Assembly: GCA_040437565.1 (NCBI GenBank)
Contig: JBDOQK010000016.1
Span: 248,001-312,000, forward strand
Origin: Albugo candida
Taxonomy: Eukaryota
DNA length: 64,000 nucleotides
Reading direction: 5' to 3'
How positions within the stretch are numbered: position 1 is the stretch's first letter; the number at the start of each line of letters is the position of its first letter. Made by a program: the position numbers and the translations under genes. The notes beneath the pieces are model-generated. The model was not told where the DNA came from, did not search any database, and was given only the letters and a program-made list of their open reading frames with translations. Below, one piece after another: positions 33,978-55,960 of this stretch.

Positions 33978-36900
33978 GGTTATGAGCCCAACGTCTATGG
34001 AACAAGTTGCTCGAGATCAAGCACAAGCTCCAGTCGCAACTCACACCGACAACGTTGGAGCCAGTACGGTTTCAAGTGCGGATGAGAACATGGAAAGGAT
34101 GCTAGATATGGTCGCTGAACTGAAAGTTGACATTGAAGCTTGCCTCACCAGGCTTGGAGCTCGAAGATTCGAGGATGACCAAGCTTCTGTCGTGTCCACC
34201 GGCAGCAGCACTTTTCGCGCTTATGCGGAGACGCACGCGGGACTTAGCCGGGATAGGACGATATCCTCGCTTGAAGACGAGTTGATAAGGAGTCCAGCGC
34301 GACATCACTATGCAAGACAGGGGCATCACCGATTGCGTGAGGAAGGTCGCAGACAAGGAGCACCCATACAGCCGCCAACGGGTCCATCATACAGGCCAGT
34401 GCCAGCACCGTCGTACTTTGAATCGCAAATATCCCTGCAGATAAGGGACCTGAAGCTCGCCATCGAAAATGTCGACGGCAATGAGGTGTACCCAGGCCTC
34501 GAGTCAGGTTTTGGACCGTGGGGGAATCGGTTTCTGAGGCAGGTCCAGATCGCTGAAGACCTCAGTGGGTGCATGTGGACTGAAGAAATATAGCTGGATA
34601 TTCTCGGTCGACATCTGTCCGGTAAAGCTGGACAGCACTTTCACAGCCAGGTGGGCATCTGGTACGAGGAGAAAACCCAAGTTTGGTACTCAATGGACCG
34701 ACTGGACACCAAGTTCGGTCCTTGAATTTCGAAGTCACAAGCGTTCAAGCTCTTCGCATCGAAGAAAAAGGAGACTATATCGTTGAATGATCACATGCTG
34801 TACCTGATGGCTTTGAGTGATGCTGTCGGTGGTGCTCACGACCAAGTTCTCGAAAAGATTGCAAGTTCGCCAGCTCTTCGAGTGACTTTCAGGGCGTGCT
34901 ATTGGCACGACTAAATTCTCAGCGTGAAGATTACTTACGACATGCAGAGGAACTGGTCCATCTTGCGCAGCTAAATGATCCAAGAATTCGCCTGGGAAGG
35001 AAGACGACGAGGGCCGCTGTTTAAAAGCACTAATGTTGGACGACTTAGAAAAGGTGAAGAGTGCCAAAGGAGATAACCAGGTGCCTGATTCAAGTGTGGA
35101 AAAGAAGATCATTACAAACGTGACTGCAAGCAAGAAGTCAAGAAAGATTTTGCACTGGTAGTTGCAGACAATGTCGACACCACATGCCAATGGATTTTGG
35201 ATAGTGGATCGAGTCGTCACCTGATGATGACAACATCACAACTTTACAATACAAAATAATGTGATGAAGAATGCCTGCTACAAAATGGAATAAGCCTGAA
35301 AATGCACTCCAAAGGAAACGCCGATTCTGTAGTACGCGTCGAGGGAGATCTTCTTCGCATAAACTAAGCGACGTCTACTACTGGGCAGATATTTCGTGGA
35401 ATATGCTTTCGTTTGAAAGAATCGAAGAAAGAAGTTATGACCTTCGTTATGATGGACGCACGCACTCGATGGTCCGACGCAGCGACGGTTTCAAGATCTT
35501 CGACGTTGACAAAGACAACAATAACGTATTGATGGTACGTGTTCTGACCGAGGATGTAGTTGGACTTGGTGCCAGGAAAGCTGAAGACTGCATATTAGCA
35601 GCTCTCGCTGAATCCGTCAATACAACAATCCCCGATTCACAAGCGGGAAGTCAACTGGATTGTCACTTGCGATTTGCACATCTGGCTTATGAAACCATTG
35701 AGAGGATGGCAAACGACCCAGAGAGCGGCATAATTCTTACGAATAAAGAAAGGCCAGCGTTCATAACATGCGCGCAGGGCAAGCAGACTCGCAATAAACA
35801 GTCGATTAAAGACACTGGAATGAATGCTCCTATCGACCGAGTAGGTGGCATTATCTGTAGCGATATCAAGGGTCCAATCAATCCAATCGACAGATGGGTA
35901 AACAGTAACTTATTGATTTCGTGATCACAAAAGCAACTACTGCCGTGTGTTTTCTGGCAAAAACGAAGGACAAGGCGACCAAGTCATTCGAGAACTTTCT
36001 CGTATACTTTGAGAAGCGCTTTAGCTGTAGGATTCACTGCCTACGCACCGATGATAGAGGCGAGTACAGGGTCGTCGACCCGTTATGTGAAAAATCCGGT
36101 GTGCGACGTCAGGTATCGGAAGCGGGGAATCAAGCTTCAAACGGGAAGGCGGAGCGTCTACATGAAACAGTAATGAACATGTTGCACTCCATGATTTTTG
36201 AATCGGGGCTGCCATTTATTTTTTTGGGGAACGCTGCAGAAAATGCGTCCTACATTCTCAACCGCAGCCCGACGCGGGAAAATGAGAATCGTGCTCCGCC
36301 GATCAAAGTTCTGACGGGTTCCATCCCAAAGCTGACGGATATTGTTTTTTTTTGCTCCCCGTTCACCGCAATCCGGAACCCGAAACACCAGACCCTAGAT
36401 CGACGTGGAGAGAAAGGATTGCAAGAGCGACGAAATGAAAAGGTACAAGTTGAAGTTTACCAAGGATCTCGTGGTGCGAACAACGCAACATGTCAGAGAT
36501 ATAAAAATCCTCAGCGAGGATGCAAGAGCGCAACTTGTTCGTCAAATAAATGAAAACAACGCGGAATGAGCTAACAATATAAAGACCTCTGATTCCATTG
36601 ACATGATTGTCGAATAAGCATATGAGGTGGACGCGCTATGTGACATACGGACAGAAACAACCAGCCATCTTGCATAACGGGAGGAGCTGCGAGTGGTAAC
36701 GAGAAACTTCAAGAAGCGCGGCAAGTGTGGCAGAAGAAGAAGAAGTAATCTGAACAAGATACAGTCAATCAGCCAGAATGAACATGAGGACGAGATATAA
36801 TGGAACAAAGATCCCGCCAGGTGAGATTATAGGTGCTGTTCATCATGCGGATCCGAAGAGTTGGAGAGAAGCCATGAACAGTGACAAGTTTGTGGAGTGG

Positions 36901-37390
36901 GAAGGCACTGCTGAGTCGGAGAAAGATTCTCTAATGGCCAATGACACGTGGGAGATGATATTGCGCACGGATGAAATTCTTCCTCTTCACGCAAACTGGG
37001 TGTTCAAGACAAAAATAGATGCTAGTGGAAACGTCGAGCGCTACAAAGCACACATGTGGCATGCGGGAATGAACAGTTCTTTGGTAAAAACTATACACTA
37101 ACATCCACCGCCGTTATGGACATGACGACTGGGAAGGTTATCCTTGCACTATACGAGATGTGAGGTGTACCGGTGCGTCATGGGAACGTGCCTAATGCGT
37201 ATGTCAAGGCCTCCACTGAACCGGATCTGGACAGTTACCTATACGTTCCACAAGGAATGAAAGTGAGTGAGAAGGAGCTACAGCGTATGGCGCTCAGCAC
37301 ACGAAACAAGTGGTGCTTCGAATACAGCGCAGCCTATATGGATTAAAACAACCTGGAAGACTCTGGGCGCAGCTTCTACATGCATAACTA
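33747..37390 (+). mobile_element. Ty1/Copia LTR retrotransposon, 5' part (LTR, PBS, gag, protease, integrase, start of RT); degenerate
   Basis: LTR 33747-33977; PBS GGTTATGAGCCCA; decayed CCHC knuckle; WILDSGSSRHL; HLRFAHL; LRTDDRGEY..NGKAERLH; PKSWREAM; WVFKTK; LYGLKQ. Confidence 0.9.
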
Positions 37391-39874
37391 TTTTCTGACT
37401 CTGCACAAGCTCTTAACTCTGTCTACGTACCCGACCGATATTTGGTTGTTCGTATGGCGATTCTTGGAGCTCCAGTATATATCCATAAAGTTTATGCTAC
37501 GGTGAATCCAGCGGAACGCAAAACATTTTTCGATCAACTTCCAACGGGACCTTTTGAACACAGCGCGACGCACATCGTTTGTGGCGATTTGAACACAGCC
37601 TTGTGTCCCAGTTTGGATTGCTCCAGTGGTGTACATAGGCACAAGACAAGTCGCCTCTCATGTTTGGAATGGCTTTCCAACTTGGCTGTGCTGGATGTTT
37701 GGCGTCAACATCATCCTGAAGCATGTATCTTTACTGGCCCCCAACCCAGAAAAAACTGGCTGGATTACATCCTTTCGTCGGAACCTCTTTTCCAGTCAGT
37801 TTACAAGGAGTCCAGTTACGTTTCACTCCCACGGACGGGTGATCATCTGGCTCATGTTGTAAAGTTCGCGAATCCATCTCAGCTCCAAGGTCGTGGTTAT
37901 TGGAAATGTCCTTTATCATTATTCGACTATCCAGTAATCAAAGAAGCGATCGAGGAGGAGGCGGATCGTATCTTAACAAAACTTCGTGTTTCTTCTCATN
38001 NNNNNNNNNNNNNNNNNNNNNNNNNNNNNNNNNNNNNNNNNNNNNNNNNNNNNNNNNNNNNNNNNNNNNNNNNNNNNNNNNNNNNNNNNNNNNNNNNNNA
38101 TTCCGTCAGTGGTTTCGTCGGGCCAGAACAGTTCGTGGAAGATTACTGGTGGCACAAACTATGGTTTATCACGTTTATGGCACTTTACAACTCATTTGAA
38201 CATTCCGCAATATATACTTCGCCGGTGGCAGTCGACGCTTAATCGATTTGTTTTGAGGCGGAAGTATAAGCGAGAACTGAAGAAACAACGCTTTCGGTTT
38301 TTACAACAATTTCTATTGAATTCCAGAACAGCTTTACCCAGCAACTGGACACTTACTGGATTGGGGATCACTCGATGCATCTAGCCCGATTTTGGGCCAT
38401 ATCGATCACTCGATATGCTCTCGATATCACCACGTCGGCATAGCACTATGGTGCATTGGAATATAGCGTCATCATGGTGGCAGACATGTATTTGGTTTCA
38501 CCAAAGTCGGTGAGATCTTACCAGCAACGACCTATCACAGCAAGAGAGATTTTCCACGCTGTTGGATGCCCCCCTATGGTTTCATATCGACCCTCGGCTT
38601 CACTTTGAGAAGAGGCAACGGTCAACAAGTGTCTCTGCTCATCGACGATGTTTGGCAATAGTACCCGAACCAGCGAGCAGCCTTCGGATGCGCTTCGCTC
38701 AAGTATTTCACAACCGGTCCCTACGCGACTTGTTTGGTGGAAGAACGGACTGTTTCGCCTCTGATCTCGAATTCATTTTGCGTTATAGTACAACGGAGGT
38801 TGGGAAGCCGTCCGATCAGTCTCAATCGAAGTTTTTACGCCGGTTGTACTTCGAAGCAACGAAAATTCTTCGAAGAGCTCAACCAGTTGGAGTATTATAC
38901 TGTCCCGAAAGGGAAATAACACGGGCATTTCCGGCTCACTTTGGCATTCAACTTTCGGACAGAAAGTTTTTCTTTCCGCTGATTCCTCGGAACCAACTGT
39001 ATCGCGTCGTGGGGAAGGCACCGCCACCGGATAAATCACACCCACTGTTGCTTCACGTATCAGAACGTGATCGAAGTGGGACGTCAACATGGGTGAAAGA
39101 TTTTTACAAGTTATTCAAACGTCTTCGCAGACGTTTGCTACCGATCTATTCAGATGTCCAGTTCCGACTATCTTTCTGTATCCTACCAGTTCGAGCACGA
39201 TTTTGATTTTTACAACAATCACATCCAGAAATCATCCTTGCACTCAGAAGCAGTGTGGTGATGTCGAAAGTTACCAGAATTGTTTTCTCGATTGCAGCAG
39301 GACAAGTCCAATTTGAGAGGGGCTCTTTCCGTCGTGAAATTTTTTCTTCTCTGTTCGATCACGATGGTCACACATCGCGTGTGCACGGATTCCTTCACTT
39401 CGTGATGCGTGGAAACCTTTTAGAGTGGTGCTGGAGGATCTCTGGTTTACATTAGTCGCGGTCGCGATTCATTTTATTTCGCACGGATCGGAATCGCAGA
39501 CTTTTGCTCACGGCACTTCAACACCTACTGCACCTGCTGTTTCGGTGATTTATAGCACCCTGAGTGACCATATTCAATATTTTCAACGGCAGTGCTATGC
39601 TACGGAGCATCTAAAGCACTTGACAAAAGGGTTAGTCATATCAACATACTGCTTCAGCACGGAAATATTTCTCTGCACGGCCCGATCTTCTTCACCTTCG
39701 GCGACGCTAAGAATTTTCAGTCGCTCATGAGAAGCGTTTCTCTTCAACACACCTTATTTCCACTCCGCTGAAGTTCGGTTTGGATTTAAACTTGCATTTA
39801 ATTTTGTTTATTATTGTAGTTAGGCATTAGATCAATCATTTACGTCTACTTCCAGTAATATAGACAACTTCAAC
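37391..39874 (+). mobile_element. tRNA-associated LINE copy 3, 3' part (APE endonuclease, post-RT region, Cys finger, 3' UTR); inside the inversion
   Basis: HIVCGDLN, DVWRQHHP, LDYIL, GDHLA and GRGYWK; CTQKQCGDVESYQNCFLDC; ends TAGACAACTTCAAC. The RT core is probably hidden in the N gap. Confidence 0.85.
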
Positions 39875-39888
39875 TAGGCCACAAGGAC
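39875..39888 (-). repeat. tRNA-Arg nt 1-14 copy (TSD between copies 3 and 4)
   Basis: TAGGCCACAAGGAC is the reverse complement of GTCCTTGTGGCCTA. Confidence 0.9.
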
Positions 39889-39890
39889 AG

Positions 39891-42555
39891 ACTTCTCAAT
39901 TTGCCGAGTAGTACGTACCTCTCAAAAAACAGCAACACCGCCTTTCTGGTTAACCACTGAACTTTCAACCCTTTCCTGTCGAAGACAAATCGTTTTTATC
40001 GACATTTCCAGCTTACCGATCGTGACATCGCCAGATGTTGATAACAGGTCTCCGCGCAACTTGTCCGCTAGTGACTCGAGGGTCTGCCCTCCCCTCGCCT
40101 ATACCGTCAGACCCTTCCCCGTTTGAAGTGGTTATTGGCCAATCAGAGGCCGATATGGATGACGCCTTACCGTCAGCACCTTGGGAACCGGTTGAGCAAA
40201 CAAAGAAAACCGGAAATCGGCCAAGTCTCGCCGATATCTTGAAAGGGCACGAAGAGCTTCGAAAGGATTGGGTTCGAACGTAGGCCCAATTTAAGGTCGA
40301 AATACTGAAACCGTTGGCAGCGGATCTTCTTGCTATCGAACAACTATTTAAGGGCGGACGGCCGAGTTGGGAGGTTTTGTCTGCTAGCCTGGAAGCAGCG
40401 AACCGTTCTCAATATCCGTATCCAAGTATGCAATCTTCTTTGAAATGGGTCAAGATCTGATTCGGACACCACCGGCCCGAATGCTACGTTCCTTTGCTCA
40501 GGATCAAGCCAATGCAGTTCTCATAAGACTCTTTGAACAAAAGAAATTCGGCCATTTGGCAAAGTTACCTAGGGTAATTTGCGGTCTTTGGTCACAAGTG
40601 AAGAAGTGTGACAGAAGCTGGCACAAAAAAAGGTCACAATACCGGGCAACTAGTATTTACTTCGAGCATATGATATGTTCGGGTCCAATTCTTTCCTGGA
40701 AATCTTCTCATTAAACCGAAAATTTGTCCATCGAGCATCGCATAGGCATTGTATTCGTTAGGATGCAACATACTCTATGCTCATTATCGTGAAGAAGTGG
40801 CTTCACAGAGCATAGCAGTGTCGACGTGGTGAGTGTATATCCACTCTACAGTCCCGCTGGTCGTGTGAGGAAAAGTCTTCGAGAAAATATCGAGGGGAGT
40901 TACAATCTTGCTCGTAGAAAAGGAGCTCAACTCTCTTATGAACGATTACGTATGGAGCAGCGCAGTCCGTACTGCTTACAATTGTCCGTGACAACTTTGG
41001 ATTCGCCCAAAGCGATAAAAGCCAAAGCGGTGAGTAAACAGCCGCCGCAAGCAAAAGCTAAGAAGAAATTAGCACCAATACACCTTTGAAACGTTCTGAA
41101 GATGTCTTTATGGAAGACAAAGACATTTCTACTCCGTGGAAAACATTTCCGGTGAAAACGGGCTTTCTATACTTCTCCACTGACTCATCCCTCCTTTTTG
41201 ACGAAACAAAAGAAGTAGACGTCCCTGGAACACCGGAACAACATGAACCGCAAAAGAAGGCTACTTATCACCCAAATCCCTGTTTTTGGAAGCTTTTTCT
41301 CCCACGTAACAAACGTAATCGTTCGCTCGATATTTTACAAAAGCGTGGATAGGAAGGCTCCACGTCAAAAGCTGGAAGGCCTTGCTACGAGTTATTATTT
41401 TGACGTCCTTCAAACTATCGACATGGAGTACGCCAAAAGCTATGTAACAAACCACTCGGAGCATGGAAGACGATTTCAAATCGTCCCTCCACTGTAGTGG
41501 CGAGCAAAGCAGTCGCAAGTCCAAGCAGGCTACTCATTTTTCTTCACCGAAAATGTGTCGACGGCAGTGGCTTCCATCAAATCAGACATGCTCCTACGGG
41601 AGGATTTGCACGTATCCAAAGCAGAAAAACACCTGGATTTTACCCCCAATGATGATAATATTCTTAAATTTGCTTCCAAACACCCGATTGCGCTGTACTG
41701 ACTGCTTAATCGGAGTGTGAGGGCCAATGATCCCAAGTTGGCCGAACTAGTGTAGGTAAGCAGAATCAATCTCGTTCTTGCAGCTTCGGATCCATGTTCA
41801 GAGACACCATTTATCATCAATTGGTCCAAGAAAATGGGGGGGAGGGAATTCCTACAAATCGGGAAGATATGTTCGATTCAGTCGCGCAATGGTGGAAAGA
41901 TTCCTCCAAATCGACGACGTGCTCCGAGTGCGCAACTCTCGCTATCTTTGAGCTAATGCTCCTATGCACAGCTCCAACGATGTTCAAGAATGACCATTGG
42001 ATTCAACACAGTGATAGTTAGGCCGTCATTCGGATTTTTGTGCATCACTGCAGATTGCTTGACGCGGATAATTTGCTTCGGGTCTTGCGCTCTCCATTGG
42101 GAACGCTCTGCCTAAGCGAATGGTTTTACGCACAATGAGAAATCCCACTTTTTGGCGACATGGAAGTTCTTCAATTATCGAAGCTCTACTTCTTTTAGGA
42201 TGCATCTATTTTGCAACTGAGAGAAGTGGAGGGAACAACAGCTAGTCGCTGGTGCTCTTTTAGTTCAGTATTAGGGGAAGCTCATAGGAGACCATCTCGT
42301 GGAAGAACAAGACCATTCTTTCCGTTTATATGAACGGAATTATAAAGAATTGCCACCTTTTGATACAGCACATGCTATCGAACTACGCCATTTGTTGCGT
42401 ACAAGAAACTCAATTTCGCGACCGTCAACACCTAGAGACTTTTCAGTTTCACTTGGCTTCCAAATTCAAACATCATCTTTTTCTCAGTCATTCGAATAGT
42501 CTTCACTCTCAACCCCATTCGGGAAAGAGTAAACGGAGTATTGAAAATTATTCGC
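39891..42555 (+). mobile_element. tRNA-associated LINE copy 4 (5' UTR, decayed ORF1, start of endonuclease; 3'-truncated)
   Basis: Starts ACTTCTCAATTTGCC; NRPSLADILKGHEELRKD matches ORF1 of the other copies; ICCVQETQF endonuclease motif; many stops. Confidence 0.85.
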
Positions 42556-43601
42556 TCCCCAGTGATAGCACAATTGAACATGAAAGATGCTCCCAACGTG
42601 GTCGGGATGAGAAGAATGGATCCCAAGTGCAGAGTTACTCTATCCATGATTGTGCCATGTGATCGCACTCGAGAAAAAGATCTTGATCGGATTCACTGCG
42701 CCACACAAAGGCTGCGTGAACAATATAATGTAGTTCTAAATATCCGTGAGGCCAGACGAGACTACAGTTCTTCGAAAGTGGTATGACACATTCCGAAGAT
42801 GCCGTTGTGTAGCCATAAATGTTCGAACTGGGTATGTATCTGTTGCGTCCGTTCTCTCCCATGATGACCTATGTGTTGACAATGGTTGGTCCGGGAGGCT
42901 TACATACGATACATGAGAGTTGAGAGCGTGGAATAGATGGGAACATGCTTACTCTACTGCTTCGTACTCCCACATAAAACGATCTGCCACGTTCATTTCG
43001 TTCAATCCAAGTGATGAGACAAATCGTCTAGTGGATACGCTGTAGTATCTGAGTGACTTCAGTGCAAGGGCGACTCAGTGACTTTCTTTCAGCCATATCC
43101 GATGTACACAGATCTTTGTCGATGTAATATATGTCGACGAAAGCTTCTTCCGTTGGCCATGTGTCGTAGTCTCGAAAAATGTCTTGAAGGCTTCAAAGCT
43201 CGAAAGCTGTAGCGGAAAAATCTCCACTAAAAATTATGCGATATGGTTCGTTCATCATGACAAGATTGTACCAAAACATGTGCGTTCTCTGTTTACAAGT
43301 AGAAGCTTCATAATGTAATTCTTGGTTGCAGTGGAGCCACATCGGTTATTTATGTAGTAGTTACGGCGTCGTAGAATATTCAAATCTGTAATTGTTATGC
43401 TCCAATCCATCTAATGCCACATTATGAATGCGTGTTTCCACCAAAAAGATTTGCTCTACCATTGTACCATTTTGCCATATCGACGGGGTGCGCTGCTGAA
43501 TATATTCATCGGCTTGTGTGGCTTAACGGAAGGTTGATAAGTCAATGCGCAGGAAAAATCGTCGTCGCATCGGATGCGAACTGCTGGAGAAATTGGATGT
43601 T
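42556..43601 (-). mobile_element. Degenerate LINE 'B', 3' part (continuation of 32530-33746, inverted)
   Basis: The minus strand reads IQFLQQF, APRRYGKMVQW, PMWLHCNQELHYE and ESDQDLFLEC. These parallel copy 3 (FRFLQQF, SPRRHSTMVHW, PLWFHIDPRLHFE, ESYQNCFLDC). Confidence 0.75.
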
Positions 43602-43606
43602 GTAGC

Positions 43607-43838
43607 TGTCGTAAACACCGCAGGGAATAGGAAGTGCCTTTACTGAAGGGAGGAAAAAATAGAAGCAAGAATATTATTCATGACTGTTAATTTCTCTTCC
43701 TACGGCCTTTATTGGTTACGAAACCACCGCATCGGGACAGTACATAGCGAAAGATATACGAGACCACTATTTAGATCCTGGGATCGTTTTCACAAAACGT
43801 CCGACGGATCGCAAGTGTGAAGTCGTTACTTTCCAACA
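43607..43838 (-). repeat. Copia 3' LTR
   Basis: TG...CA, 232 bp; follows the PPT and is followed by GCTAC on the minus strand. Confidence 0.9.
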
Positions 43839-44960
43839 CTCCTTCCTCACGGCGCCGTTTTTTTGTTACCTCAATTCATGTCCTGATTCTTGCTAGTTTC
43901 GCGTATCAGCAACATAGTCCCATCAATAGTTGTAGTCGAATAGCGCTAAATGACTTCGTGACCAAGTCAGCTACCATCTCTTCGGTGGGCACATAACATA
44001 GCTTTACGATGCCCTTTTTAGCACAATCTTTGATGAACTTGAACTTAATGTCGATGTGCTTGGATCGCGTCGAGCTTTCTTCGTTTTCCATCTGTCGGAT
44101 AACTGCTTGGCTGACTATCTCCATCTGCATAGGTCATTGCACGTTTATCCCCAGTTCAACAATTAGCTCGCGTAATCCTAGGAGCTCTTGATCGGCATGT
44201 GAAGCCGAGTGAACTCGGCTTCCATAGTCGATAGCGATACTGATACTTGCTTCCGGCATGTCCAGCCTACTATCATGATACCCACACGAAAGATCGCTCC
44301 GCTTACCGACTTGCGGCTAATCTTGTCCCCTGCAAAGTCCGCATCGCATACGCTTGAAAGTTGCACAGTAGTGATTTGCTAAGCCTGTTTCTGTCCAAGC
44401 TGAAACTTGACGTTCTTGGTTCCTTTGAAAACCTGGCAATTATTTTGCTCGTGTTTCATTCGCTTACCGTAGGAGCATGGGCCCGACGCGTAGCTCGCTG
44501 CACCGCATACGCAATGTCCGGTCGTGTGCATCGAGCCAACCATAAAAGTGATCCCACGATTGACTGAAGTTGTTTTAGTGATGCTGATCCGACTGGCCCA
44601 TCCACGGGCAGGATCGGGTCGGCTTCCCACATGTCAGTATCATGATCGAGCCCTATGGGTGTCATCACGTGTTGTGCATCTTGTAGGCCGAACTTCGAAT
44701 TGTAGCTCATCTATCATTTTGTTCTTGGTCAATTCTATAACCAAATTCCGGGGAATGAGTCGGTCGCATTCCTAGAAACTTGCTTACGACGCCCAAGGCC
44801 TTGATCTGGAGCGCTACCAATTGTTTAAACACATAATCCACTCATGTCCCGGTCACCAGAAAATCGTCAACATATACTCCGACGACAGCCTTTCCATCGT
44901 GATCTCTTTTATAGTAGAGGCACGAGTCTGCGACACATTGTACGAATCCGATACGAACCA
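43607..44960 (-). mobile_element. Ty1/Copia 3' part (RT, RNase H, PPT, 3' LTR), inverted
   Basis: DSCLYY..GVYVDDFLVTG; CTRPDIAYAV; DADFAGDKISRKSVSG; RSKHIDIK; PPT GAGGAAGGAG at 43839-43848. Confidence 0.9.
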
Positions 44961-46761
44961 GGAAAATCTTGACGAATAATTGTCATAACCCCGTTTACTC
45001 GTTCCCTAACGGGATGAGAGGGAAGACTATTCGAGTCACTGACAAAAAGATGATGTCGGAATTTGGAAGCCAAGTGAAACTGAAAAGTCTCCAGGTGGTG
45101 ACGGTCGCGAAAATGAGTTTCTTGTACGCAACAAATAGCGTATTTCGATGTGTGTGTTGTATCAATAGATGACCATTCTTATTGAATCCAATTGTATTTA
45201 CGGAAAGAATGGTTTCATTTGTCCACGAAAGAATGTCCGTTGAGCTGCCCTTAGTATTGAACTGAAAGGGGTCCAACGACGAGTTTTTTAACTCCGTCTT
45301 CCTCCTTCAGCTGTAGTATGGAAGCTTCGTCGGTAAGAAGAAGGGTCGACGACTGTAACTGCACCAAGTCATCGAAAATTGNNNNNNNNNNNNNNNNNNN
45401 NNNNNNNNNNNNNNNNNNNNNNNNNNNNNNNNNNNNNNNNNNNNNNNNNNNNNNNNNNNNNNNNNNNNNNNNNNNNNNNNNAGTAGCTGTTACCGAGAAT
45501 CCTTACTTTTTCATTGGCCAATCTCTGGCAGACTTCCTCTTCGGTAAAAAGTAGTCTCAAATTACCACCAGGTAATTTTGCCAATTGGCCAATTTTTCCA
45601 GTTTCAAAAAGCTCGTCGACTATCACATTACCATGATCTCGAACAACTTCTCAATTTGCCGGCTACTAAGTAACCCGCCAATTTAGTAAAACAACTCGAA
45701 AAACAACCTTTATCAACTCCTTCTTCTCGAAAACAATGGTTCAAGTCGACATATCGACACAACCAAGGGTGCTAGCGTCCACTTGTAGTGACGTGGCAAC
45801 CCTCATGAGTCACCCTGTTTTGGGTGATTGTATGATTGTTGATCAGTCATCACCCCTGTGTGATGACGTGGAAAGTACCCCCACCCCCAGNNNNNNNNNN
45901 NNNNNNNNNNNNNNNNNNNNNNNNNNNNNNNNNNNNNNNNNNNNNNNNNNNNNNNNNNNNNNNNNNNNNNNNNNNNNNNNNNNNNNNNNNATAGCCTAGG
46001 CAACTAGAGAAGTCAGTTAGTCTAATTCTAGTAATATAGACACCTTCAACTGATCTCGAACAAAAGATTGCAAAATGTGCGCTGGTGGGGTTCGAACCAG
46101 CGCTTGTCCAGTCTCCAAAACAACCGAGAATTTGGCGCTCGGTAATACGAAAGGTTTGGCTACAGTTAAGTGAGCAGACAAAACCTCCCAACTTGGACGG
46201 CCCTCTTCGAACAGCTTTTCAATTGTGCGTAGATCCGACGCTAAAAGCTTGGGCATTTCAACCTTCCAGGTTGCTTTTTGAGCCGCTTTATCCTTGCGGA
46301 TTTCCTCATGACCCTTCAGAATATCAGCGAGACTTGGCCGATTACCGGTTTTCTTTCCTTGCTCAACCGGGCTCCGAGGTGCTGACGGCAACGCGTCATC
46401 CACCTCTATTGCGACCGGCTGATTGGCAGGAATCGGATTGGGAGAGAGAGGTGTCTCAATCTCCATATCGGCCTCTGATTGGCCAATTACCACATCAGCC
46501 GGTAAAGGGTTGGACGGGATAGGTGAGGACGTGGGCGCATCCTTTACAGGTAACGGGTCAATAACGGACGAGTTACGAAGAGACAAGTTACCCACATCCG
46601 GTGATGTAACGGACAAGTTGTTTGGATACGGGTGGTCAGCATCCGGTGAGGTGACGGTAGGAAGGCTTGAGATGTCGATAGAAACCATTATCTTCGACAG
46701 GGTAGAAAGTTTGCTGTATTCTATTTGGCAGGTACGTAAAAGCTGGCAAATAGAGAATTGT
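44960..46761 (-). mobile_element. tRNA-associated LINE copy 3, 5' part (ORF1, start of endonuclease), interrupted by copy 5
   Basis: ORF1 MVSIDISSLP..NRPSLADILKG..QSFVRD continues as HGNVIVDELFETGKIGQLAKLPGGNLR after the nested insert. Endonuclease start ILSVNTIGF..NGVMTIIRQDFPG. Confidence 0.85.
45646..46050 (+). mobile_element. LINE copy 5, off-target and nested antisense in ORF1 of copy 3 (body collapsed in the N gap)
   Basis: Begins ACTTCTCAATTTGCC and ends TAGACACCTTCAAC. TGATCTCGAACA is repeated at 45634-45645 and 46051-46062. ORF1 start MVQVDIS at 45736. Confidence 0.85.
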
Positions 46762-46775
46762 GTCCTTGTGGCCTA
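46762..46775 (+). repeat. tRNA-Arg nt 1-14 copy (TSD between copies 2 and 3)
   Basis: GTCCTTGTGGCCTA, identical to 48685-48698. Confidence 0.9.
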
Positions 46776-47346
46776 GTTGAAGCTGTCCAGATTACTAGAA
46801 TTAGACGTAAATGACTTCTCTAATGCCTAAACTACAATAAATAAACAAAATGAATGCAATGTTGGTCTAGAAAGCCGCAGCTAGGTTCAGCGACTGGAAT
46901 AAGATAGTACTGTGTNNNNNNNNNNNNNNNNNNNNNNNNNNNNNNNNNNNNNNNNNNNNNNNNNNNNNNNNNNNNNNNNNNNNNNNNNNNNNNNNNNNNN
47001 NNNNNNNNNNNNNNNGAAATTGAAGTGGGAGAGGGAGGCGTCTCAATCTCCATAGCGTTCCCTGATTGGCCAATTACCTCAGCAGACGTCGTGACAGAGG
47101 CCAACGGTAGAGTTGTGCCAGTGGATGTACTTTCCGCCGGCAACGTGCCCGTGACGGACAAGCTACATGTAGACGTACTAGCCACATCAGGCGATGTAAC
47201 AATTGGGAAGCTGGAGATGTCGACAATAACCATCGTCTTCGACAAGAAAAGGGAAGCTTGCGTGTTATTCTGAACAGGCGGTTTGGCTGTATTCGTTAAT
47301 GCAGCGTACGTGTCTGGGATGCGCTGTAGCCGGCTGAGTAAGAAGT
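46776..47346 (-). mobile_element. tRNA-associated LINE copy 2 (both ends visible, body in the N gap)
   Basis: 5' ACTTCTTACTCAGCC; ORF1 MVIVDISSFPIVTSPDV; conserved 3' end ..TGGACAGCTTCAAC; tRNA 5' fragments on both sides. Confidence 0.85.
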
Positions 47347-47361
47347 GTCCTTGTGGCCTAA
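47347..47361 (+). repeat. tRNA-Arg nt 1-15 copy (TSD between copies 1 and 2)
   Basis: GTCCTTGTGGCCTAA, identical to 48685-48699. Confidence 0.9.
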
Positions 47362-48684
47362 GTTGAAGGTGTCTATATTACTAGAATTAGACGTAAATGA
47401 CTTCTCTAAATGCCTAAACTACAATAAATAACATATAATACATGCAGATGTGNNNNNNNNNNNNNNNNNNNNNNNNNNNNNNNNNNNNNNNNNNNNNNNN
47501 NNNNNNNNNNNNNNNNNNNNNNNNNNNNNNNNNNNNNNNNNNNNNNNNNNNNACAAATTTGTTCGCAAACTTTTCCAGCCACGACCAGAGGTTTAGGACA
47601 TGACGTGGAGCGAAAATACACTCTCCACGTAGACATGGTTAGCCGTTTAGAAGCTACAGCTTCACGAAAGTTTTCATACAAAACATCGCAGCCAAGACGA
47701 TGCAGTGCTGATGCAACTGTTATTGTGGACATTTCCGGTCCAATTCCGAAAACGTCCATGAAGTAGCGTGACCCGAGCACATCGAACTCTCGGAAGGAGT
47801 ACTGGTTCCCCATGAGGGAAACCGTCTCATGAGCCAACTTCTGGCAAACTTCCTCGCTCGTGACGAGAAGGCGTAAATTACCTCCAGGCAATTTAGCCAG
47901 TTGGCCAATTTTCCCCGCATCAAATAACTCGTCAAGGATCTTGTTCCCATGATCTCTAACGAACGATTGTAGGATTTGGGCGGGTGGTGAGCGTACAAAA
48001 GTTTGTCCCGTCTCCAGGACAATCGAAAACTTTGCACTTGGTAGCATAAACGGCTTTGCTGCCGCCAAGTGTACAGCCAAAACATCCCAGGACGGACGTC
48101 CGTCTTGAAAGAGTTGTTCGATAGCACGCAGATCTGATGCTAAAGGTTTTGGCATTTCAACCTTCCACTTCGCTTTTTTTACAGCTTTGTCCTTGCGTGC
48201 TTCTTCTTGACCTTTCAAGATTTCGGCTAAACTTGGACGATGGTCGGTTTCACACGCCGTTTCAACCGGTTTCGAAGCTGATGACGCGGTGTTGTCATCA
48301 ACCTCCATTGGCACCGGCTGATTGGCAGAAATTGGAGTGGCAGAGAGAGGCGTCTCTATCTCCATCTCGGTCTCGGATTGGCCAATAACCCCAGCGGACG
48401 TGGTAGAGTCCGACGGTAGAGGTGTGCGGGTAGCTGTACTTTCCGCCGGTAACGTGTCAGTAACGGACACATTACATCGGTAACGTGTCAGTAACGGACA
48501 CATTACATGTAGAAGTACTACTCACATCAGGCGATGTAACGATAGGTAAGCTGGATATGTCGATAGTAACCATTGTCTTCGACAGGAAAGGGTGGAAAAG
48601 TGCGTGTTTTGCTGAAAAGGCGCTTTGTTGTATTCGTTTTGCATTTTGTTTTGGATATATGTAGTAGCCGGCGAATTGAGAAGT
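47362..48684 (-). mobile_element. tRNA-associated LINE copy 1, abutting tRNA nt +1 (ORF1 visible, rest in the N gap)
   Basis: 5' ACTTCTCAATTCGCC; ORF1 from ATG 48573 (MVTIDISSLPIVTSPDV..RPSLAEILKG..GQLAKLPGGNLR); 3' end TAGACACCTTCAAC. Confidence 0.88.
48447..48508. repeat. 31-bp perfect tandem duplication that frameshifts LINE copy 1 ORF1
   Basis: CGGTAACGTGTCAGTAACGGACACATTACAT x2. Confidence 0.9.
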
Positions 48685-48757
48685 GTCCTTGTGGCCTAAT
48701 GGATAAGGCATCGCCCTCCGAAGGCGGAGATTGAGGGTTCGAGTCCCTTCAAGGACT
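48685..48757 (+). tRNA. tRNA-Arg, anticodon CCG
   Basis: Acceptor stem GTCCTTG/CAAGGAC; D arm GCCT/AGGC; anticodon arm TCGCC-CTCCGAA-GGCGG; T arm GAGGG-TTCGAGT-CCCTT; 73 nt. Confidence 0.95.
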
Positions 48758-48930
48758 ATTGATAGCAATAACTGGAGTGTTTAATACATCTGCAACTTAA
48801 TTGTACAAAGTACCTGCATCCACTACTGGCCTAACGCCACACAAGGAATCCGATCTAGAGGCATTATCTTGCCTCCATCACCATTTCATTCGTAAGGTAC
48901 TTGTATCTGACCTAACCAAATTGTAATTTT

Positions 48931-51900
48931 TCACGTTCGCTTGGCATTCGCAACTGTAACGACATGGAAGCGTGTGCCGTACGAAAGCCTGTATGGATTA
49001 AAATCCTAAAGAGGCATTTAGAAAAACTCACGCAAATGTGTGGAACTTGTACCTCTGTAGCTTGAAACGTGTCAATGAAAATGATTTCCCCACAGATATA
49101 CGCCGGGAATTGATTATTTTCTTCCTTCTTTTCATTCATGCGAGCTGCTTGTATAGCTTCACTCGACAGAAAGTAGTTTGGCATGCCTTCATTGAATGCA
49201 ACATACGGAAGCTTTCCCCCCTTGAGAAAAAATAAAGCCAAATGATTGATCTGAAACTTTCTGAACGAAATGCGTTGATGCTGATTGAATGTAATTGAAA
49301 CTGATGAAAGAGAAGGTTGGGACGACGTGGTGGATGCATCGGATGCTTGGTCGTGCCGTGGACATAGAGGGCTACTAGTAGCTGTGGGAGTTGATAAACC
49401 AGCTAGTTTCTGAGACAAAGGAAGTGCTTCCGTCACGCCATCGCCATTTTGCGCGTTGCTCATGTCAAACCAAGAGGAAGATAAAGGCGCTACAGTCACT
49501 ACGTGGTATTTCATTCCTTCTCGAAGACAATAGGGCTTTGACTCCTATCACAAAAATGTATCAGAGCCGGTAAATGGACTAATGATCACGTACCTTTGTT
49601 GTGACATAGTCTTCAACATAGACAATACAACCGAGTACGTATGGTGGATTTCTAGTACAACGAGTAAGAAAAGTGGTAAGGGAATGAAAATCTACGTTGT
49701 ACTTTTCATCACGTTTGAAAGCTTCGATGGACTCGTCGGACAAGTAATAATGTGGGCAGCCTTCATGAAATGCAATGTAATCGCCAAACGGTGTCGGGAC
49801 GAACAATGCTACGCTCCCACATGCAAATGAACGATACGAGATACCTAAAAATTCTTCGATTTCACGTTCTTCTAAATTCCGCTCCCGTTTTCCTTCGGAC
49901 AATAAAGCTTCTGCAAGCTGTTGCGTCGTCAAAATTGTAGTTCGAGGGGATGACAAAGTGGAACTCTGGGGCATAGATGTGGATATTTGATCGGCATAAT
50001 TTTTTCTTGGTCGATCGCTGATGNNNNNNNNNNNNNNNNNNNNNNNNNNNNNNNNNNNNNNNNNNNNNNNNNNNNNNNNNNNNNNNNNNNNNNNNNNNNN
50101 NNNNNNNNNNNNNNNNNNNNNNNAGTAATAATGTGGGCAGCCTTCATGAAATGCAATGTAATCGCCAAACGGTGTCGGGACGAACAATGCTACGCTCCCA
50201 CATGCAAATGAACGATACGAGATACCTAAAAATTCTTCGATTTCACGTTCTTCTAAATTCCGCTCCCGTTTTCCTTCGGACAATAAAGCTTCTGCAAGCT
50301 GTTGCGTCGTCAAAATTGTAGTTCGAGGGGATGACAAAGTGGAACTCTGGGGCATAGATGTGGATATTTGATCGGCATAATTTTTTCTTGGTCGATCGCT
50401 GATGATTTTATCCAGTTCTGTGGCGCTATTTTCAACGCTTATATTTTCAGGAAGATCCAACGTATTTGGCAACTTGTTAGGTGTGTCATGAAATTCCATC
50501 GAGAGTTTATCCTCTCCCTTTATGGTATCAGTTGCCAAGGTTGTCGTGGATCCAACCGGTAATTGCTCTATCATATCAACGCTTAGATCTTTCGTGTCTA
50601 ATACTTTCCGGCCAACATCCTCATATTCTTTTTCCACAATCACATACTCTTCACTGAATGTGGCCCAATCTTCTGCTAAAGACAGTCAGTTATTGACGCA
50701 TGAGGTATACCTGGGCACATACCGTAATGTATTTGTTCTTCGGCAATTAGAGCATGTTTGTTTGCGAGGCTAGCACTACCGGATTCTAGCTCCTTTGCAA
50801 TCTCTTCTGTTGGGAGAGGTGGAAGTAAAAAATCGGCTCGAAAGAAATCTTCAAACGAAATTCGCTCTTGCGGATCAACTCGTAACAAATCCGCAACAAG
50901 CCTTGCACACTCGACAGAGACCATTACTTTTGCGGGAAAGCGAACGTGATCATTGTGTCGAAAATATCGATGGATATTTCGCCTTAATGCCAAATGATTT
51001 GTCGCCTGGCAGTTGTCCACGAGCAAAAACGGATGGTCGTTCGCAAGCATCTCATACAAAATGATTCCCACAGACCATAAGTCAGCTTTTGCGTCATAAC
51101 TCTTATACTCCAGTAGTTCGGGAGCCATATAAAGAGGAGACCCCACAACACTTTCAGCAAGCATTTCTTGTTGTAATTCCCGAGCAAAGCCAAAGTCGGC
51201 TGTGTTGATTTATTACATCCGAATCTACTTCCAATCGTTTAAAGCGACACGTACCGATTTTCAATTTCGCCGTACTTATGTTCTTAGAAGACAGCAAAAG
51301 ATTTGCTGGTTTTAAGTCTCTATGAACGACATTTTGTGAGCGTAAAAATTGGAGTCCAGCCGCTACAATTAACATCCATCAGATGACACCAATCAATTAT
51401 GGTGATAAGTTACCAAGCTGTGCCATAAAACTTCTGGCCTCGTCCTCAGATAATCCTTGCTGAGCTTTGATTATTTGTGCAATATCTCCTCCGGCGCAGT
51501 ATTCCTACAGAAGTACCCACTGAGTTTTTATATAAAGATAATTCGGAACATACGTACCAAAACAATAAAAATGTGGTGCTGTGATTCTTTGGTGCAAAGA
51601 AGGCGAACAATATGCGGATGCCCGTTTTCGTATTGCTCCACAGCTACTCGCATGGTTTCTATTTCTTTTTCTATGCTTTGCCGCTCATGAGGCCGTCGCA
51701 ATTTATCTTTAGCGATCAATTTGATTGCGACAGCGGCTCCTGTTGACAAATTGGTAGCTTTATGGACCTAGATAGCGATATGAGATTTTGGAGGTCAATG
51801 ACATCCACCTATGTACACTACCGTTCCGTATGATCCTCTTCCGATTGTCTCGACCAAACTGTAGCTTGTATGAGCATAGTCTTTTTATATGAGTATTGAA

Positions 51901-54900: not shown

Positions 54901-55960
54901 GGTGTAATTTGGATCATAAGCGATCATAAGTATATAATCTATCACGTTGACATCTACCAATAATGAATCACTCAAGAGCTTGGGAAACGTGAATAACTAG
55001 AATAACTAGAAAAACTTCACTGTTTAGGATGACGAAACTAACCACCTGATCACCAACTCGGATGTATGAAGGGATTCATCTTGCTAGAATAATGAGATGA
55101 AGAATCCAAACTATATATATCGTCAAAGCTGCAACGGTTGCGCCATCTCGTGTCCACCTTACGTGATGGCGACTGTCACTTTGACCCATCGATATCTTTT
55201 TGGGCTGAAAGCAGACGTGAATAAAAGTGTATTATATCTCGATGATCAAAATATTGCTTATGTAGCAGGTCACGTTATTGTCATCTACTCCCTCGATGAG
55301 AAACGACAGAGATTTTTGCCGGGTACAGAAGGAACGCTCGGAATCACTGCGATTGCTGCAAGTTCTGGAGGTCGAAACTTGGCGGTAGCTGAGAGAAATG
55401 ATCGAGCTGTCATCAGTATCTTTGATATCAAAGCACTCAAGCGACGTAAAGTATTAAGTAACGCAGAAGCCCAGACTCGAATATACGTTGCAGTTGAGTT
55501 CAGCTCTGACAACCAGCTTTTATTGGCACAAGGAGGTGACCCAGACTGGGTATTGTATTGCTGGGATTTGTCCAAAGGTAAACTGATGGCGAGTATCACG
55601 AGTCCTTTGTCACTTGGCAATATTATCAACGCACCTCAACCATCACCACTTGTAGCCAACAGCACATCACATCTGTCTCCTAGCTTGCAATACAGGTCAA
55701 GAGGCTCCAGTGTATCGTTTGGTATAGATCCATCAAGCAGTGGATCAGGTAGCCTTATCTCAACGGCTANNNNNNNNNNNNNNNNNNNNNNNNNNNNNNN
55801 NNNNNNNNNNNNNNNNNNNNNNNNNNNNNNNNNNNNNNNNNNNNNNNNNNNNNNNNNNNNNNNNNNNNNCTAGAAAAACTTCACTGTTTAGGATGACGAA
55901 ACTAACCACCTGATCACCAACTCGGATGTATGAAGGGATTCATCTTGCTAGAATAATGAG

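What the first reader, a model, noticed from the sequence alone, without database searches (positions are those of the whole stretch)
37391..48757. LINE family that repeatedly inserts at the 5' end of a tRNA-Arg(CCG) gene and leaves it intact
Seen: the first 14-15 nt of the tRNA (GTCCTTGTGGCCTA[A]) recur at 47347, 46762 and, inverted, 39875. Each copy sits between the conserved 3' end of one LINE (..CTTCAAC) and the conserved 5' end of the next (ACTTCTC..GCC). The last LINE starts exactly at tRNA position -1 and points away from the tRNA. The elements have ORF1, an APE endonuclease and a C-terminal Cys finger. Known: Tx1-type elements target small-RNA genes or their arrays (Keno at U2, Mutsu at 5S, Dewa at tRNA spacers), and Dictyostelium TRE5/TRE3 insert near tRNAs. 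Inference: a target-specific L1/Tx1-like family nicks within the A box/D arm and duplicates nt 1-14/15, so the full tRNA is kept after each insertion. I do not know of this being described in oomycetes, but cannot check.
Basis: partly seen in the sequence, partly recalled or inferred. Interest (0 to 1): 0.92.

Follow-up and report, generated by a model that had tools for sequence, protein, structure and literature searches.

The report
LINE that inserts inside tRNA genes
A family of jumping genes in a white-rust oomycete repeatedly lands at one exact spot near the start of a tRNA gene and, by copying the gene's first 14-15 letters, leaves a whole gene behind that can be hit again.

Summary
One intact tRNA-Arg(CCG) lies at 48685-48757. 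Its first 14-15 nt recur three times (0 expected), each between the conserved 3' end of one LINE and the 5' end of the next.

The copies differ strongly from each other while the tRNA pieces are identical. They are therefore separate insertions, not a duplicated block. The "inverted" piece at 39875 belongs to the same array, turned round by a real inversion (37391-44956) between a Copia element and a LINE.

Public contigs from four studies bridge the key junctions. They also show many other 3'end-spacer-5'end joints. Five of seven distinct spacers read as 5' ends of other tRNAs, and one looks like a recurrent off-target inside the LINE's own ORF1. The target is therefore probably nt 14/15 of tRNA genes in general, not Arg(CCG) alone.

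The element has an ORF1, an APE endonuclease, a reverse transcriptase and a CCHC finger, with no poly(A) tail. It is closest to human L1 ORF2p and widespread in oomycetes. Tx1 membership was not tested.

No whole genome was available, so the genome-wide association rests on contig fragments. I found no description in six literature searches. [quoted passage not shown]

The parts
48685..48757 (+). Intact tRNA-Arg(CCG), the standing target
   Evidence: ARAGORN. Rfam tRNA 66.1 bits, model positions 1-71 of 71.
47362..48684 (-). LINE A, the newest copy. Its 5' end at 48684 abuts tRNA nt 1. The 5' UTR is about 111 nt and the ORF1 ATG is at 48573. The interior is lost in the gap 47453-47552. The 3' end ...CTTCAAC is at 47362.
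   Evidence: Sequence, alignments, ORF1 aa 63-313 in one frame. Contigs of X1, X4 and X7 bridge 48684/48685.
47347..47361 (+). 15-nt copy of tRNA nt 1-15 (target-site duplication between A and B)
46776..47346 (-). LINE B: 5' end at 47346, gap 46916-47015, 3' end at 46776
46762..46775 (+). 14-nt copy of tRNA nt 1-14 (duplication between B and C)
44957..46761 (-). LINE C, 5' part: 5' UTR, ORF1 and ORF2 aa 2-114. It is interrupted by D and by the gap 45382-45481. It ends at the inversion breakpoint.
   Evidence: tblastn with P0001 and P0144; alignment.
45646..46050 (+). LINE D, from the most abundant subfamily, nested in the ORF1 of C in the opposite direction. Only 245 nt of the 5' end and 60 nt of the 3' end are assembled (gap 45891-45990). 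It is flanked by a 12-13 bp duplication (45634-45645 and 46051-46062). This is not a tRNA site.
   Evidence: Sequence. Contigs of X1, X4 and X7 skip 45633->46051, with 13 letters fitting both sides.
37391..39874 (+). LINE F, the 3' part of C displaced by the inversion: ORF2 aa 116-1395 (the RT is hidden in the gap 38000-38099) plus a 3' UTR of about 167 nt ending ...CTTCAAC
   Evidence: tblastn with P0001, 59-74% identity. The joint 37394<->44961 on opposite strands appears in all 4 runs.
39875..39888 (-). 14-nt copy of tRNA nt 1-14 (duplication between C/F and E)
   Evidence: One 856-867 nt contig in each of 4 runs spans it with 1 mismatch.
39889..42558 (+). LINE E, the oldest copy: two extra letters, then 5' UTR, ORF1 (start codon lost; pieces in three frames) and ORF2 aa 8-110, then cut off
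43900..44956 (-). Copia RT/RNase H part. It continues the Copia that ends at 37390 on the + strand, and so marks the inversion.
   Evidence: Translations...LWAQLLHA*L at 37390 continues as LVRIGFVQCVADSCLYYK...VYVDDFLV from about 44966 on the minus strand.
36173..37390 (+). Copia part up to the start of its RT, ending at the other inversion breakpoint
   Evidence: Contigs of X15 (37123-37423) and X4 (37250-37483) bridge 37390/37391.

Best explanation
This is an oomycete L1-like non-LTR retrotransposon that integrates by target-primed reverse transcription at a fixed place inside tRNA genes. It carries an ORF1, then an ORF2 with an APE endonuclease, a reverse transcriptase and a CCHC finger. 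Its 3' end is ...CTTCAAC, with no poly(A) tail.

Shown:
- The 3' junction lies after tRNA nt 14 or 15 on the tRNA-sense strand.
- The 5' junction lies at tRNA nt 1, give or take 0-2 letters.
- The duplicated target is nt 1-14/15.
- A whole tRNA remains on one side and is hit again. The result is an array: tRNA, A, 15 nt, B, 14 nt, C/F, 14 nt, E, with the newest copy next to the gene.

Inferred:
- The APE endonuclease itself reads the conserved D-arm/A-box sequence (G10...A14, then TGG a few letters on) and nicks after A14/A15.
- The second nick falls 13-15 bp upstream. This equals the distance to nt 1, so the duplication rebuilds the gene.
- Because that motif is shared by most tRNAs, the family uses many tRNA genes, not only Arg(CCG).
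- A look-alike motif in its own ORF1 (codons for RDHG) is an occasional off-target.
For: Fragments and ends:
- Four copies of the 14-mer against 0 expected.
- All 3 fragments lie between a LINE 3' end and a LINE 5' end.

Separate insertions:
- The 5' regions of A, B, C, D and E are only 59-77% identical pairwise, yet the three tRNA fragments are identical to the gene. The copies therefore differed when they arrived.
- E, which is farthest from the tRNA once the inversion is undone, has the most broken ORF1: five pieces in three frames.
- D, in a non-tRNA site with its own 12-13 bp duplication, fixes the element's true ends and shows that the tRNA piece is not part of the element.

Public contigs:
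- The F|14 nt|E junction is spanned in 4 of 4 runs.
- The A|tRNA junction is spanned in 3 of 4 runs.
- 28-35 contigs per run diverge just behind the 3' end plus TGA. Their consensus starts GCTA or GCTG, which is the reverse complement of tRNA nt 8-11.
- In the 12 rows shown of 32 in table 5c, 10 rows join a 3' end to a 5' end. They give 9 distinct strings, which collapse to 7 spacers of 14-15 nt.
- 5 of the 7 spacers have T8, R9, G10, C11 and A14, and 6 of 7 have G10 and C11. These match the upper-case positions of the Rfam tRNA consensus.

Element class: Pfam Exo_endo_phos and RVT_1. The best solved relative is human L1 ORF2p, E 3e-48 over residues 26-820. C1239, C1244, H1252 and C1257 are invariant.
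Against: - No whole genome was available, so no tRNAscan intersection was done.
- The multi-tRNA reading rests on 14-15 nt spacers from contigs laid at 90% likeness or more. Only 12 of 32 spacer rows and 24 of 777 loose-end rows were shown.
- The shown spacers are biased to targets that share TCA at nt 12-14, because the alignment ran on through TGA.
- Two of the 7 spacers lack T8.
- The A|B and B|C junctions were not among the contig rows shown.
- Endonuclease specificity is untested, and tethering to the Pol III complex would give the same coordinates.
- The tRNA's expression after insertion is unknown.
Confidence: 0.78

Rival explanations
1. Same element and same insertion point, but the site is chosen by contact with the Pol III transcription complex (TFIIIC on the A box, or TFIIIB), as in Dictyostelium TRE5-A or yeast Ty3. 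On this reading the endonuclease does not read the DNA sequence.
For: The same tRNA coordinate is used in tRNAs whose acceptor stems differ completely (spacers). Tethering is the known way by which other retrotransposons find tRNA genes (PMC3706591 passages; PMC5006619 passage).
Against: Copy D, and a second and different spacer ending in the same ...CGAGATCA, sit in LINE ORF1 sequence. No tRNA gene, and so no TFIIIC site, is expected there, but an A-box-like G...A|TGG motif is present. The junction is precise to within 1 nt, which is typical of sequence-specific APE elements rather than of tethered ones, which insert within windows beside the gene.
Confidence: 0.2
2. The family is specific for tRNA-Arg(CCG) only. 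The other spacers seen in public contigs would then be unrelated or chance sequences.
For: Within the window, all 3 tRNA-derived fragments and the only tRNA are Arg(CCG).
Against: Seven other spacers of exactly 14-15 nt sit between a 3' end and a 5' end, and 5 carry T8, R9, G10, C11 and A14. By my own estimate, not run as a call, the chance of T8+G10+C11 in one random spacer is about 0.014. In addition, 28-35 different flanks per run follow the 3' end.
Confidence: 0.1
3. There is no targeting. The pattern comes from local tandem duplication or unequal crossing-over of one LINE-plus-fragment unit, or from scaffold mis-joins in a gap-ridden assembly.
For: There are five 100-N gaps in the span and an inversion in the same region. 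Tandem tRNA arrays formed by unequal crossing-over are reported in other oomycetes (PMC9584435 and PMC11540230, passages).
Against: The neighbouring LINE ends are 59-77% identical while the fragments are 14/14, 14/14 and 15/15. Contigs from four studies bridge the F|E and A|tRNA junctions and the inversion breakpoint. The oomycete arrays in the literature carry a whole tRNA per unit, not 14-15 nt.
Confidence: 0.04
4. The 14-15 nt tRNA-like piece is part of the element itself, as a tRNA-derived head or tail like that of a SINE, and is not a duplicated target.
For: tRNA-derived heads are common in SINEs (PMC4494074 passage).
Against: Copy D has the same two termini without any tRNA piece, and is flanked by its own 12-13 bp duplication. 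The spacer differs from junction to junction.
Confidence: 0.02

Closest known systems
Tx1-clade target-specific LINEs (Keno in U2 snRNA genes, Mutsu in 5S rRNA genes, Dewa in the tRNA-Leu spacer of zebrafish)
   Same: An APE-type endonuclease. Insertion at one sequence in multicopy small-RNA gene units. The target choice is ascribed to the endonuclease (PMC4494074 and PMC3706591, passages).
   Different: Dewa sits in the spacer, not inside the gene. Tx1 is described there as an animal clade. Membership was not tested here, because no Tx1 reference sequence was available. This element appears to use many tRNA species.
tRNA-gene-specific elements with a restriction-like endonuclease: NeSL-1_TV (tRNA-Pro), LIN15_SM (tRNA-Arg), LIN25_SM (tRNA-Glu)
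   Same: Non-LTR retrotransposons inserted inside tRNA genes (PMC4640811 passage).
   Different: They have a different endonuclease (PD-(D/E)xK type) and belong to the early-branching NeSL group. Each is tied to one isotype. Their exact insertion points are in a supplementary figure that I could not open.
Dictyostelium TRE5-A / TRE3
   Same: Non-LTR elements that use tRNA genes as safe sites in a compact genome.
   Different: They insert about 50 bp upstream or downstream through the Pol III factors, not at a fixed nucleotide inside the gene (PMC3706591 passage; abstract listing).
Dada DNA transposons
   Same: Insertion at fixed positions inside tRNA or snRNA genes.
   Different: They use a DDE transposase, a cut-and-paste mechanism and 6-7 bp duplications.
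Human LINE-1 ORF2p
   Same: It is the best solved relative: E 3e-48 across endonuclease and RT. Both have a C-terminal CCHC motif. The ORF1 model gives weak RRM-like fold hits.
   Different: L1 has a poly(A) tail and a loose target (recalled). This element has a fixed non-A 3' end and a defined target.

Membership tests
Non-LTR retrotransposon of the L1 group (APE type) | N-terminal apurinic-like endonuclease domain in ORF2 | tested here: met
   PF03372, E 1.4e-09, at residues 32-247 of P0001, the 74%-identical full-length relative. The window copy F alone scores only 16.1 bits, below the cut-off. It aligns to P0001 aa 116-316 at 74%.
Non-LTR retrotransposon of the L1 group (APE type) | Reverse transcriptase domain | tested here: inconclusive
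   RVT_1, E 1.4e-32, in P0001. In the window the RT of this family falls in the gap 38000-38099, and no intact RT motif was found.
Non-LTR retrotransposon of the L1 group (APE type) | C-terminal CCHC zinc motif | tested here: met
   C1239, C1244, H1252 and C1257 are invariant in 27 sequences. In copy F the His position reads N, so the motif is decayed.
Non-LTR retrotransposon of the L1 group (APE type) | Closest to L1 rather than to other solved RT elements | tested here: met
   Human L1 ORF2p E 3e-48 over 26-820, against R2 at 1e-20 over the RT only.
Non-LTR retrotransposon of the L1 group (APE type) | Target-site duplications flanking a full copy | tested here: met
   D has 12-13 bp. The tRNA site has 14-15 bp.
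Tx1 clade | RT groups with Tx1 references in a phylogeny | not tested
   No named Tx1 or Repbase reference could be obtained. Outside oomycetes the nearest hits are plant L1-like proteins with zf-RVT.
Target-sequence-specific non-LTR retrotransposons | Independent copies share the same insertion point in the same target sequence | tested here: met
   Four copies (A, B, C/F, E) at tRNA-Arg nt 14/15. Copy divergence shows they are independent. Similar joints occur in contigs of 4 runs.
Target-sequence-specific non-LTR retrotransposons | Most genomic copies lie in the target | not testable with these tools
   No genome is held. The only evidence is partial: spacers and loose-end consensus from contigs.
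Target-sequence-specific non-LTR retrotransposons | The endonuclease cleaves the target sequence specifically | not testable with these tools
   This needs an in vitro nicking assay.
Pol III-tethered tRNA-associated retrotransposons (TRE5/TRE3, Ty3 type) | Insertion in a window beside the tRNA gene, not inside it | tested here: not met
   The junction lies inside the gene after nt 14/15, precise to 1 nt.
SINE or LINE with a tRNA-derived terminus | The tRNA-like sequence is carried by the element at every copy | tested here: not met
   D lacks it. Spacers differ between junctions.

The most novel reading that the evidence does not exclude
An L1-like, APE-type retrotransposon lineage reads the conserved D-arm/A-box motif shared by nearly all tRNA genes. 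It has matched its nick position (nt 14/15) to its own 13-15 bp stagger, so every insertion rebuilds the gene and leaves the target reusable. That would make it a pan-tRNA safe-harbour strategy.

The trait is held by subfamilies that differ by a third of their UTR sequence, so it may be old in oomycetes. It may also shape the surroundings of tRNA genes in these compact pathogen genomes.
Probability: 0.45. Interest if true: 0.82.

Novelty: new variant of a known kind. Interest (0 to 1): 0.7.

Why it matters
Target-specific retrotransposons show how a parasite can multiply in a compact genome without killing its host, and they are models for programmable insertion.

The known tRNA-linked cases differ from this one. 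They sit beside the gene through Pol III factors, or use a restriction-like endonuclease tied to a single tRNA, or are DNA transposons.

If confirmed genome-wide, this element adds two things:
- An APE-type enzyme that recognises a motif common to many tRNA genes.
- A geometry in which nick position equals duplication length, so the gene is regenerated and arrays build up.

There is also a practical point. These arrays explain assembly gaps next to tRNA genes in Albugo genomes, and they produce 14-15 nt tRNA fragments that annotation tools do not see.

Tried and rejected
- **Whole genome:** none is held for this window, so the proposed genome-wide BLAST and tRNAscan intersection could not be done.
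- **Metagenome scan** for the 3' 20-mer: 3 loci, all chance matches with no other likeness to the window.
- **Viral contigs** with the family alignment: 56 pattern matches, 0 relatives.
- **Prokaryote genome contigs**: 36 loci, all distant LINE contaminants at 38% identity or less. None belongs to the family.
- **RNA runs:** no RNA holder listed.
- **ORF1 Pfam:** no family.
- **ORF1 structure:** mean pLDDT 50.5. Foldseek gave nothing at E <= 0.001; the weak rows are mostly RRM domains, with human L1 ORF1p at rank 47. This is a hint only.
- **Consensus fold of the last 75 nt of the 3' UTR:** -3.35 kcal/mol, with no compensatory pair. No supported structure.
- **D as a short SINE-like derivative:** I considered this because its ends are very deep in contigs. 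I rejected it as unproven, because proteins of that subfamily carry an ordinary ORF1 of up to 415 aa and the interior of D lies in a gap.
- **Link to oomycete tRNA arrays:** a link to the large tandem tRNA arrays of Peronospora and Phytophthora is not supported. Those units hold whole tRNAs.
Full report
**1. The observation**

ARAGORN finds a single tRNA in the 64-kb window, tRNA-Arg(CCG) at 48685-48757 on the + strand. Rfam scores it 66.1 bits over the whole model. Its first 14 nt occur four times: at the gene, at 47347 and 46762 on the + strand, and at 39875 on the - strand. None is expected in 100 shuffles.

The 20-mer at the LINE 3' end occurs four times with up to 3 mismatches, with 0 expected. 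Three of those copies touch a tRNA fragment.

The 5' 15-mer gives five matches with up to 2 mismatches. Four are 5' ends. The fifth is an inverted copy inside a 3' UTR.

Read directly, each fragment lies between ...CTTCAAC and the conserved 5' end. The fragment at 47347 is 15 nt long and the other two are 14 nt. The 5' end of the copy nearest the gene (48684) touches tRNA nt 1 and points away from it.

**2. Anatomy of the array**

I mapped the window with a full-length relative found in the protein collection: P0001, 1398 aa, 74% identical to the window's endonuclease piece. This gives the following copies, with LINE sense on the minus strand near the gene:
- **A:** 48684 down to 47362.
- **B:** 47346 down to 46776.
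- **C:** 46761 down to 44957, holding the 5' UTR, ORF1 and ORF2 aa 2-114.

On the + strand further left:
- **F:** 37391-39874, holding ORF2 aa 116 to the end and the 3' UTR.
- the 14-nt fragment.
- **E:** 39889-42558, holding the 5' UTR, ORF1 and ORF2 aa 8-110.

C stops, and F starts, at the same residue. At the same two points a Copia reverse transcriptase is cut. It reads ...LWAQLLHA*L up to 37390 on the + strand, and continues LVRIGFVQCVADSCLYYK...VYVDDFLV on the minus strand from about 44966.

A single inversion of 37391-44956 explains both breaks. Undoing it gives one array: tRNA, A, 15 nt, B, 14 nt, C+F (a whole element), 14 nt, E.

The inversion is real. Contigs of two runs bridge 37390/37391, and all four runs hold contigs that join 37394 to 44961 on opposite strands, as intact copies would.

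Five 100-N gaps lie in the span. The interiors of A, B and D and the RT of F are therefore not seen.

**3. Separate insertions, not a duplicated block**

- The first ~140 nt of A, B, C, D and E are only 59-77% identical pairwise. The last 60 nt are 83-95% identical.
- The three tRNA fragments match the gene at 14/14, 14/14 and 15/15. Had one unit been duplicated and then decayed, the fragments would have decayed too. The copies therefore already differed when they arrived, and each copied the fragment afresh.
- E, the farthest from the gene, has lost its start codon and has ORF1 in five pieces over three frames. The assembled ORF1 of A and of C each read in one frame. This agrees with the newest copy lying next to the gene.
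- Copy D (45646-46050, + strand) sits inside the ORF1 of C, with the same two termini but no tRNA piece. It is flanked by its own duplication.
- Contigs of three runs skip exactly 45633->46051, with 13 letters fitting both sides. D therefore fixes the true ends of the element and shows that the tRNA piece is target, not cargo.

**4. Public contigs**

Logan contigs of four runs from four studies were laid on 37000-49200 at 90% likeness or more. One of the runs may be the source of the assembly.
- One 856-867 nt contig per run spans the F|14 nt|E junction with 1 mismatch (4 of 4 runs).
- Contigs span the A|tRNA junction in 3 of 4 runs. In the fourth, the contig starts at 48691.
- The A|B and B|C junctions are not among the rows shown.
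- The ends of D are very deep. At place 45724 the summed depth is 2860, 88063, 117474 and 8159, against about 7, 60, 130 and 15 on the unique flank. The tool warns that this is not a copy number.
- Behind the 3' end plus TGA, 28, 28, 35 and 28 contigs diverge. Their consensus starts GCTA in 3 runs and GCTG in 1.
- Table 5c shows 12 of 32 rows. Ten of the 12 join a 3' end to a 5' end through a few letters.
- Together with the window letters they run on through, these joints give 7 distinct spacers of 14-15 nt.

Reverse-complemented, 5 of the 7 spacers have T8, R9, G10, C11 and A14. Six of 7 have G10 and C11. These are the positions written in upper case in the Rfam consensus.

The seventh ends in the same letters as D's own target. 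Like D's target, it can be read as the ORF1 codons around RDHG, which are present in ORF1 proteins of this subfamily.

I read this as insertion after nt 14 of many tRNA genes, plus a recurrent look-alike site in the element's own ORF1. The sample is biased towards targets with TCA at nt 12-14, and it is small.

**5. What the element is**

- P0001 carries Exo_endo_phos (residues 32-247) and RVT_1 (559-807).
- Its best solved relative is human L1 ORF2p, E 3e-48 over residues 26-820. R2 proteins reach 1e-20 over the RT only.
- In 27 family members C1239, C1244, H1252 and C1257 are invariant.
- ORF1 has no Pfam family, but is 41% identical to the N-terminal part of a 2228-aa Globisporangium protein.
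- A low-confidence ORF1 model gives only weak, mostly RRM-like, fold hits.
- Named relatives come from Albugo, Globisporangium, Plasmopara, Peronospora, Phytophthora and Aphanomyces. Beyond oomycetes the next hits are plant L1-like proteins.
- The element ends in ...CTTCAAC without an A tail.
- Whether it belongs to Tx1 was not tested.

**6. Mechanism**

Target-primed reverse transcription is the established route for such elements (recalled). On that basis the tRNA-sense strand is nicked after A14 (two fragments) or A15 (one fragment), and the free 3' OH primes copying of the RNA from its terminal ...CAAC.

The other strand is opened 13-15 bp upstream, at tRNA nt 1 give or take a letter. Filling in then duplicates nt 1-14/15.

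A shorter stagger would leave the gene headless. Here the nick position equals the stagger, so the gene is rebuilt with the element's 5' end at -1 and can be hit again.

That the endonuclease itself reads the motif is an inference. It rests on three points:
- The junction is precise to within 1 nt.
- The motif is shared: G10, A14, then TGG within a few letters.
- The ORF1 off-target lies where no Pol III factor is expected.

Tethering to TFIIIC/TFIIIB remains possible.

The terminal CAAC is the reverse complement of the GTTG that follows A14 in many tRNAs (recalled). For those targets the nick could lie up to four letters further on. The Arg site, which lacks GTTG, fixes it at 14/15.

**7. Comparison with what is known**

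From passages read:
- Target-specific non-LTR elements are concentrated in the early-branching, Tx1 and R1 groups (PMC4640811).
- tRNA-gene-specific families NeSL-1_TV, LIN15_SM and LIN25_SM have a restriction-like endonuclease.
- Dewa (Tx1) sits in the tRNA-Leu spacer of zebrafish. TRE5-A inserts beside tRNA genes through host factors (PMC3706591).
- Tx1 is described as an animal clade (PMC4494074).
- Dada DNA transposons insert inside tRNA genes with 6-7 bp duplications.

Six full-text searches found no oomycete LINE that targets tRNA genes.

The two Albugo genome papers were read as passages only. They give 153 and 314 tRNA genes, and LINEs at 7.3% of the genome, with no word on targeting.

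Repbase and journal supplements could not be checked, so a catalogue entry cannot be excluded.

**8. Verdict**

The name is too narrow: the target is probably tRNA genes in general, not Arg(CCG) alone. Tx1 membership is unproven, and the decisive genome-wide table is still missing.

Noticed in passing
window 37390/37391 and 44956/44957: There is an inversion of about 7.6 kb. One breakpoint lies in a Copia RT and the other in LINE ORF2 at residue ~115. The letters CTGG are shared at the breakpoints. The inversion splits one full LINE into C and F.
   Followed up: yes
window 45999-46013, and the matching places in the 3' UTRs of A, B and F: About 45 nt before its 3' end, each copy carries an inverted copy of its own first 7-15 nt (ACTTCTC... 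against ...GAGAAGT). The RNA ends could therefore pair. No covariation test was possible with four copies.
   Followed up: partly
window 48414-48475: A tandem duplication of about 31 nt shifts the frame in the ORF1 of copy A. Contigs of three runs show a joint that goes back 33 here, so the repeat number may vary between isolates.
   Followed up: no
window 45634-45645 / 46051-46062, and ORF1 proteins P0141 and P0144: The ORF1 codons for RDHG form a tRNA-like G...A|TGG motif. It has been hit by the family at least twice, in different subfamily backgrounds. This amounts to self-targeting.
   Followed up: partly
window 42578-43533 (- strand): This is a fragment of a different LINE lineage, 29-38% identical to P0001 aa 953-1286. 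It is cut at its 3' side where it meets the truncated E. The stretch 42698-43104 is very deep in all four runs. A deletion probably removed the original upstream flank of the tRNA.
   Followed up: no
window 55235 and 56099: The same 70-residue peptide is encoded twice, 864 nt apart, on either side of the gap 55770-55869. This is probably a scaffolding duplicate of one exon.
   Followed up: no
L005 8460-9990: This contig is filed under a bacterial MAG but is eukaryote-like. It holds six tandem tRNA-Ala(GGC)-like units with a 244-nt period, plus an inverted partial unit, next to a 5'-truncated LINE that is unrelated (30% identity).
   Followed up: partly
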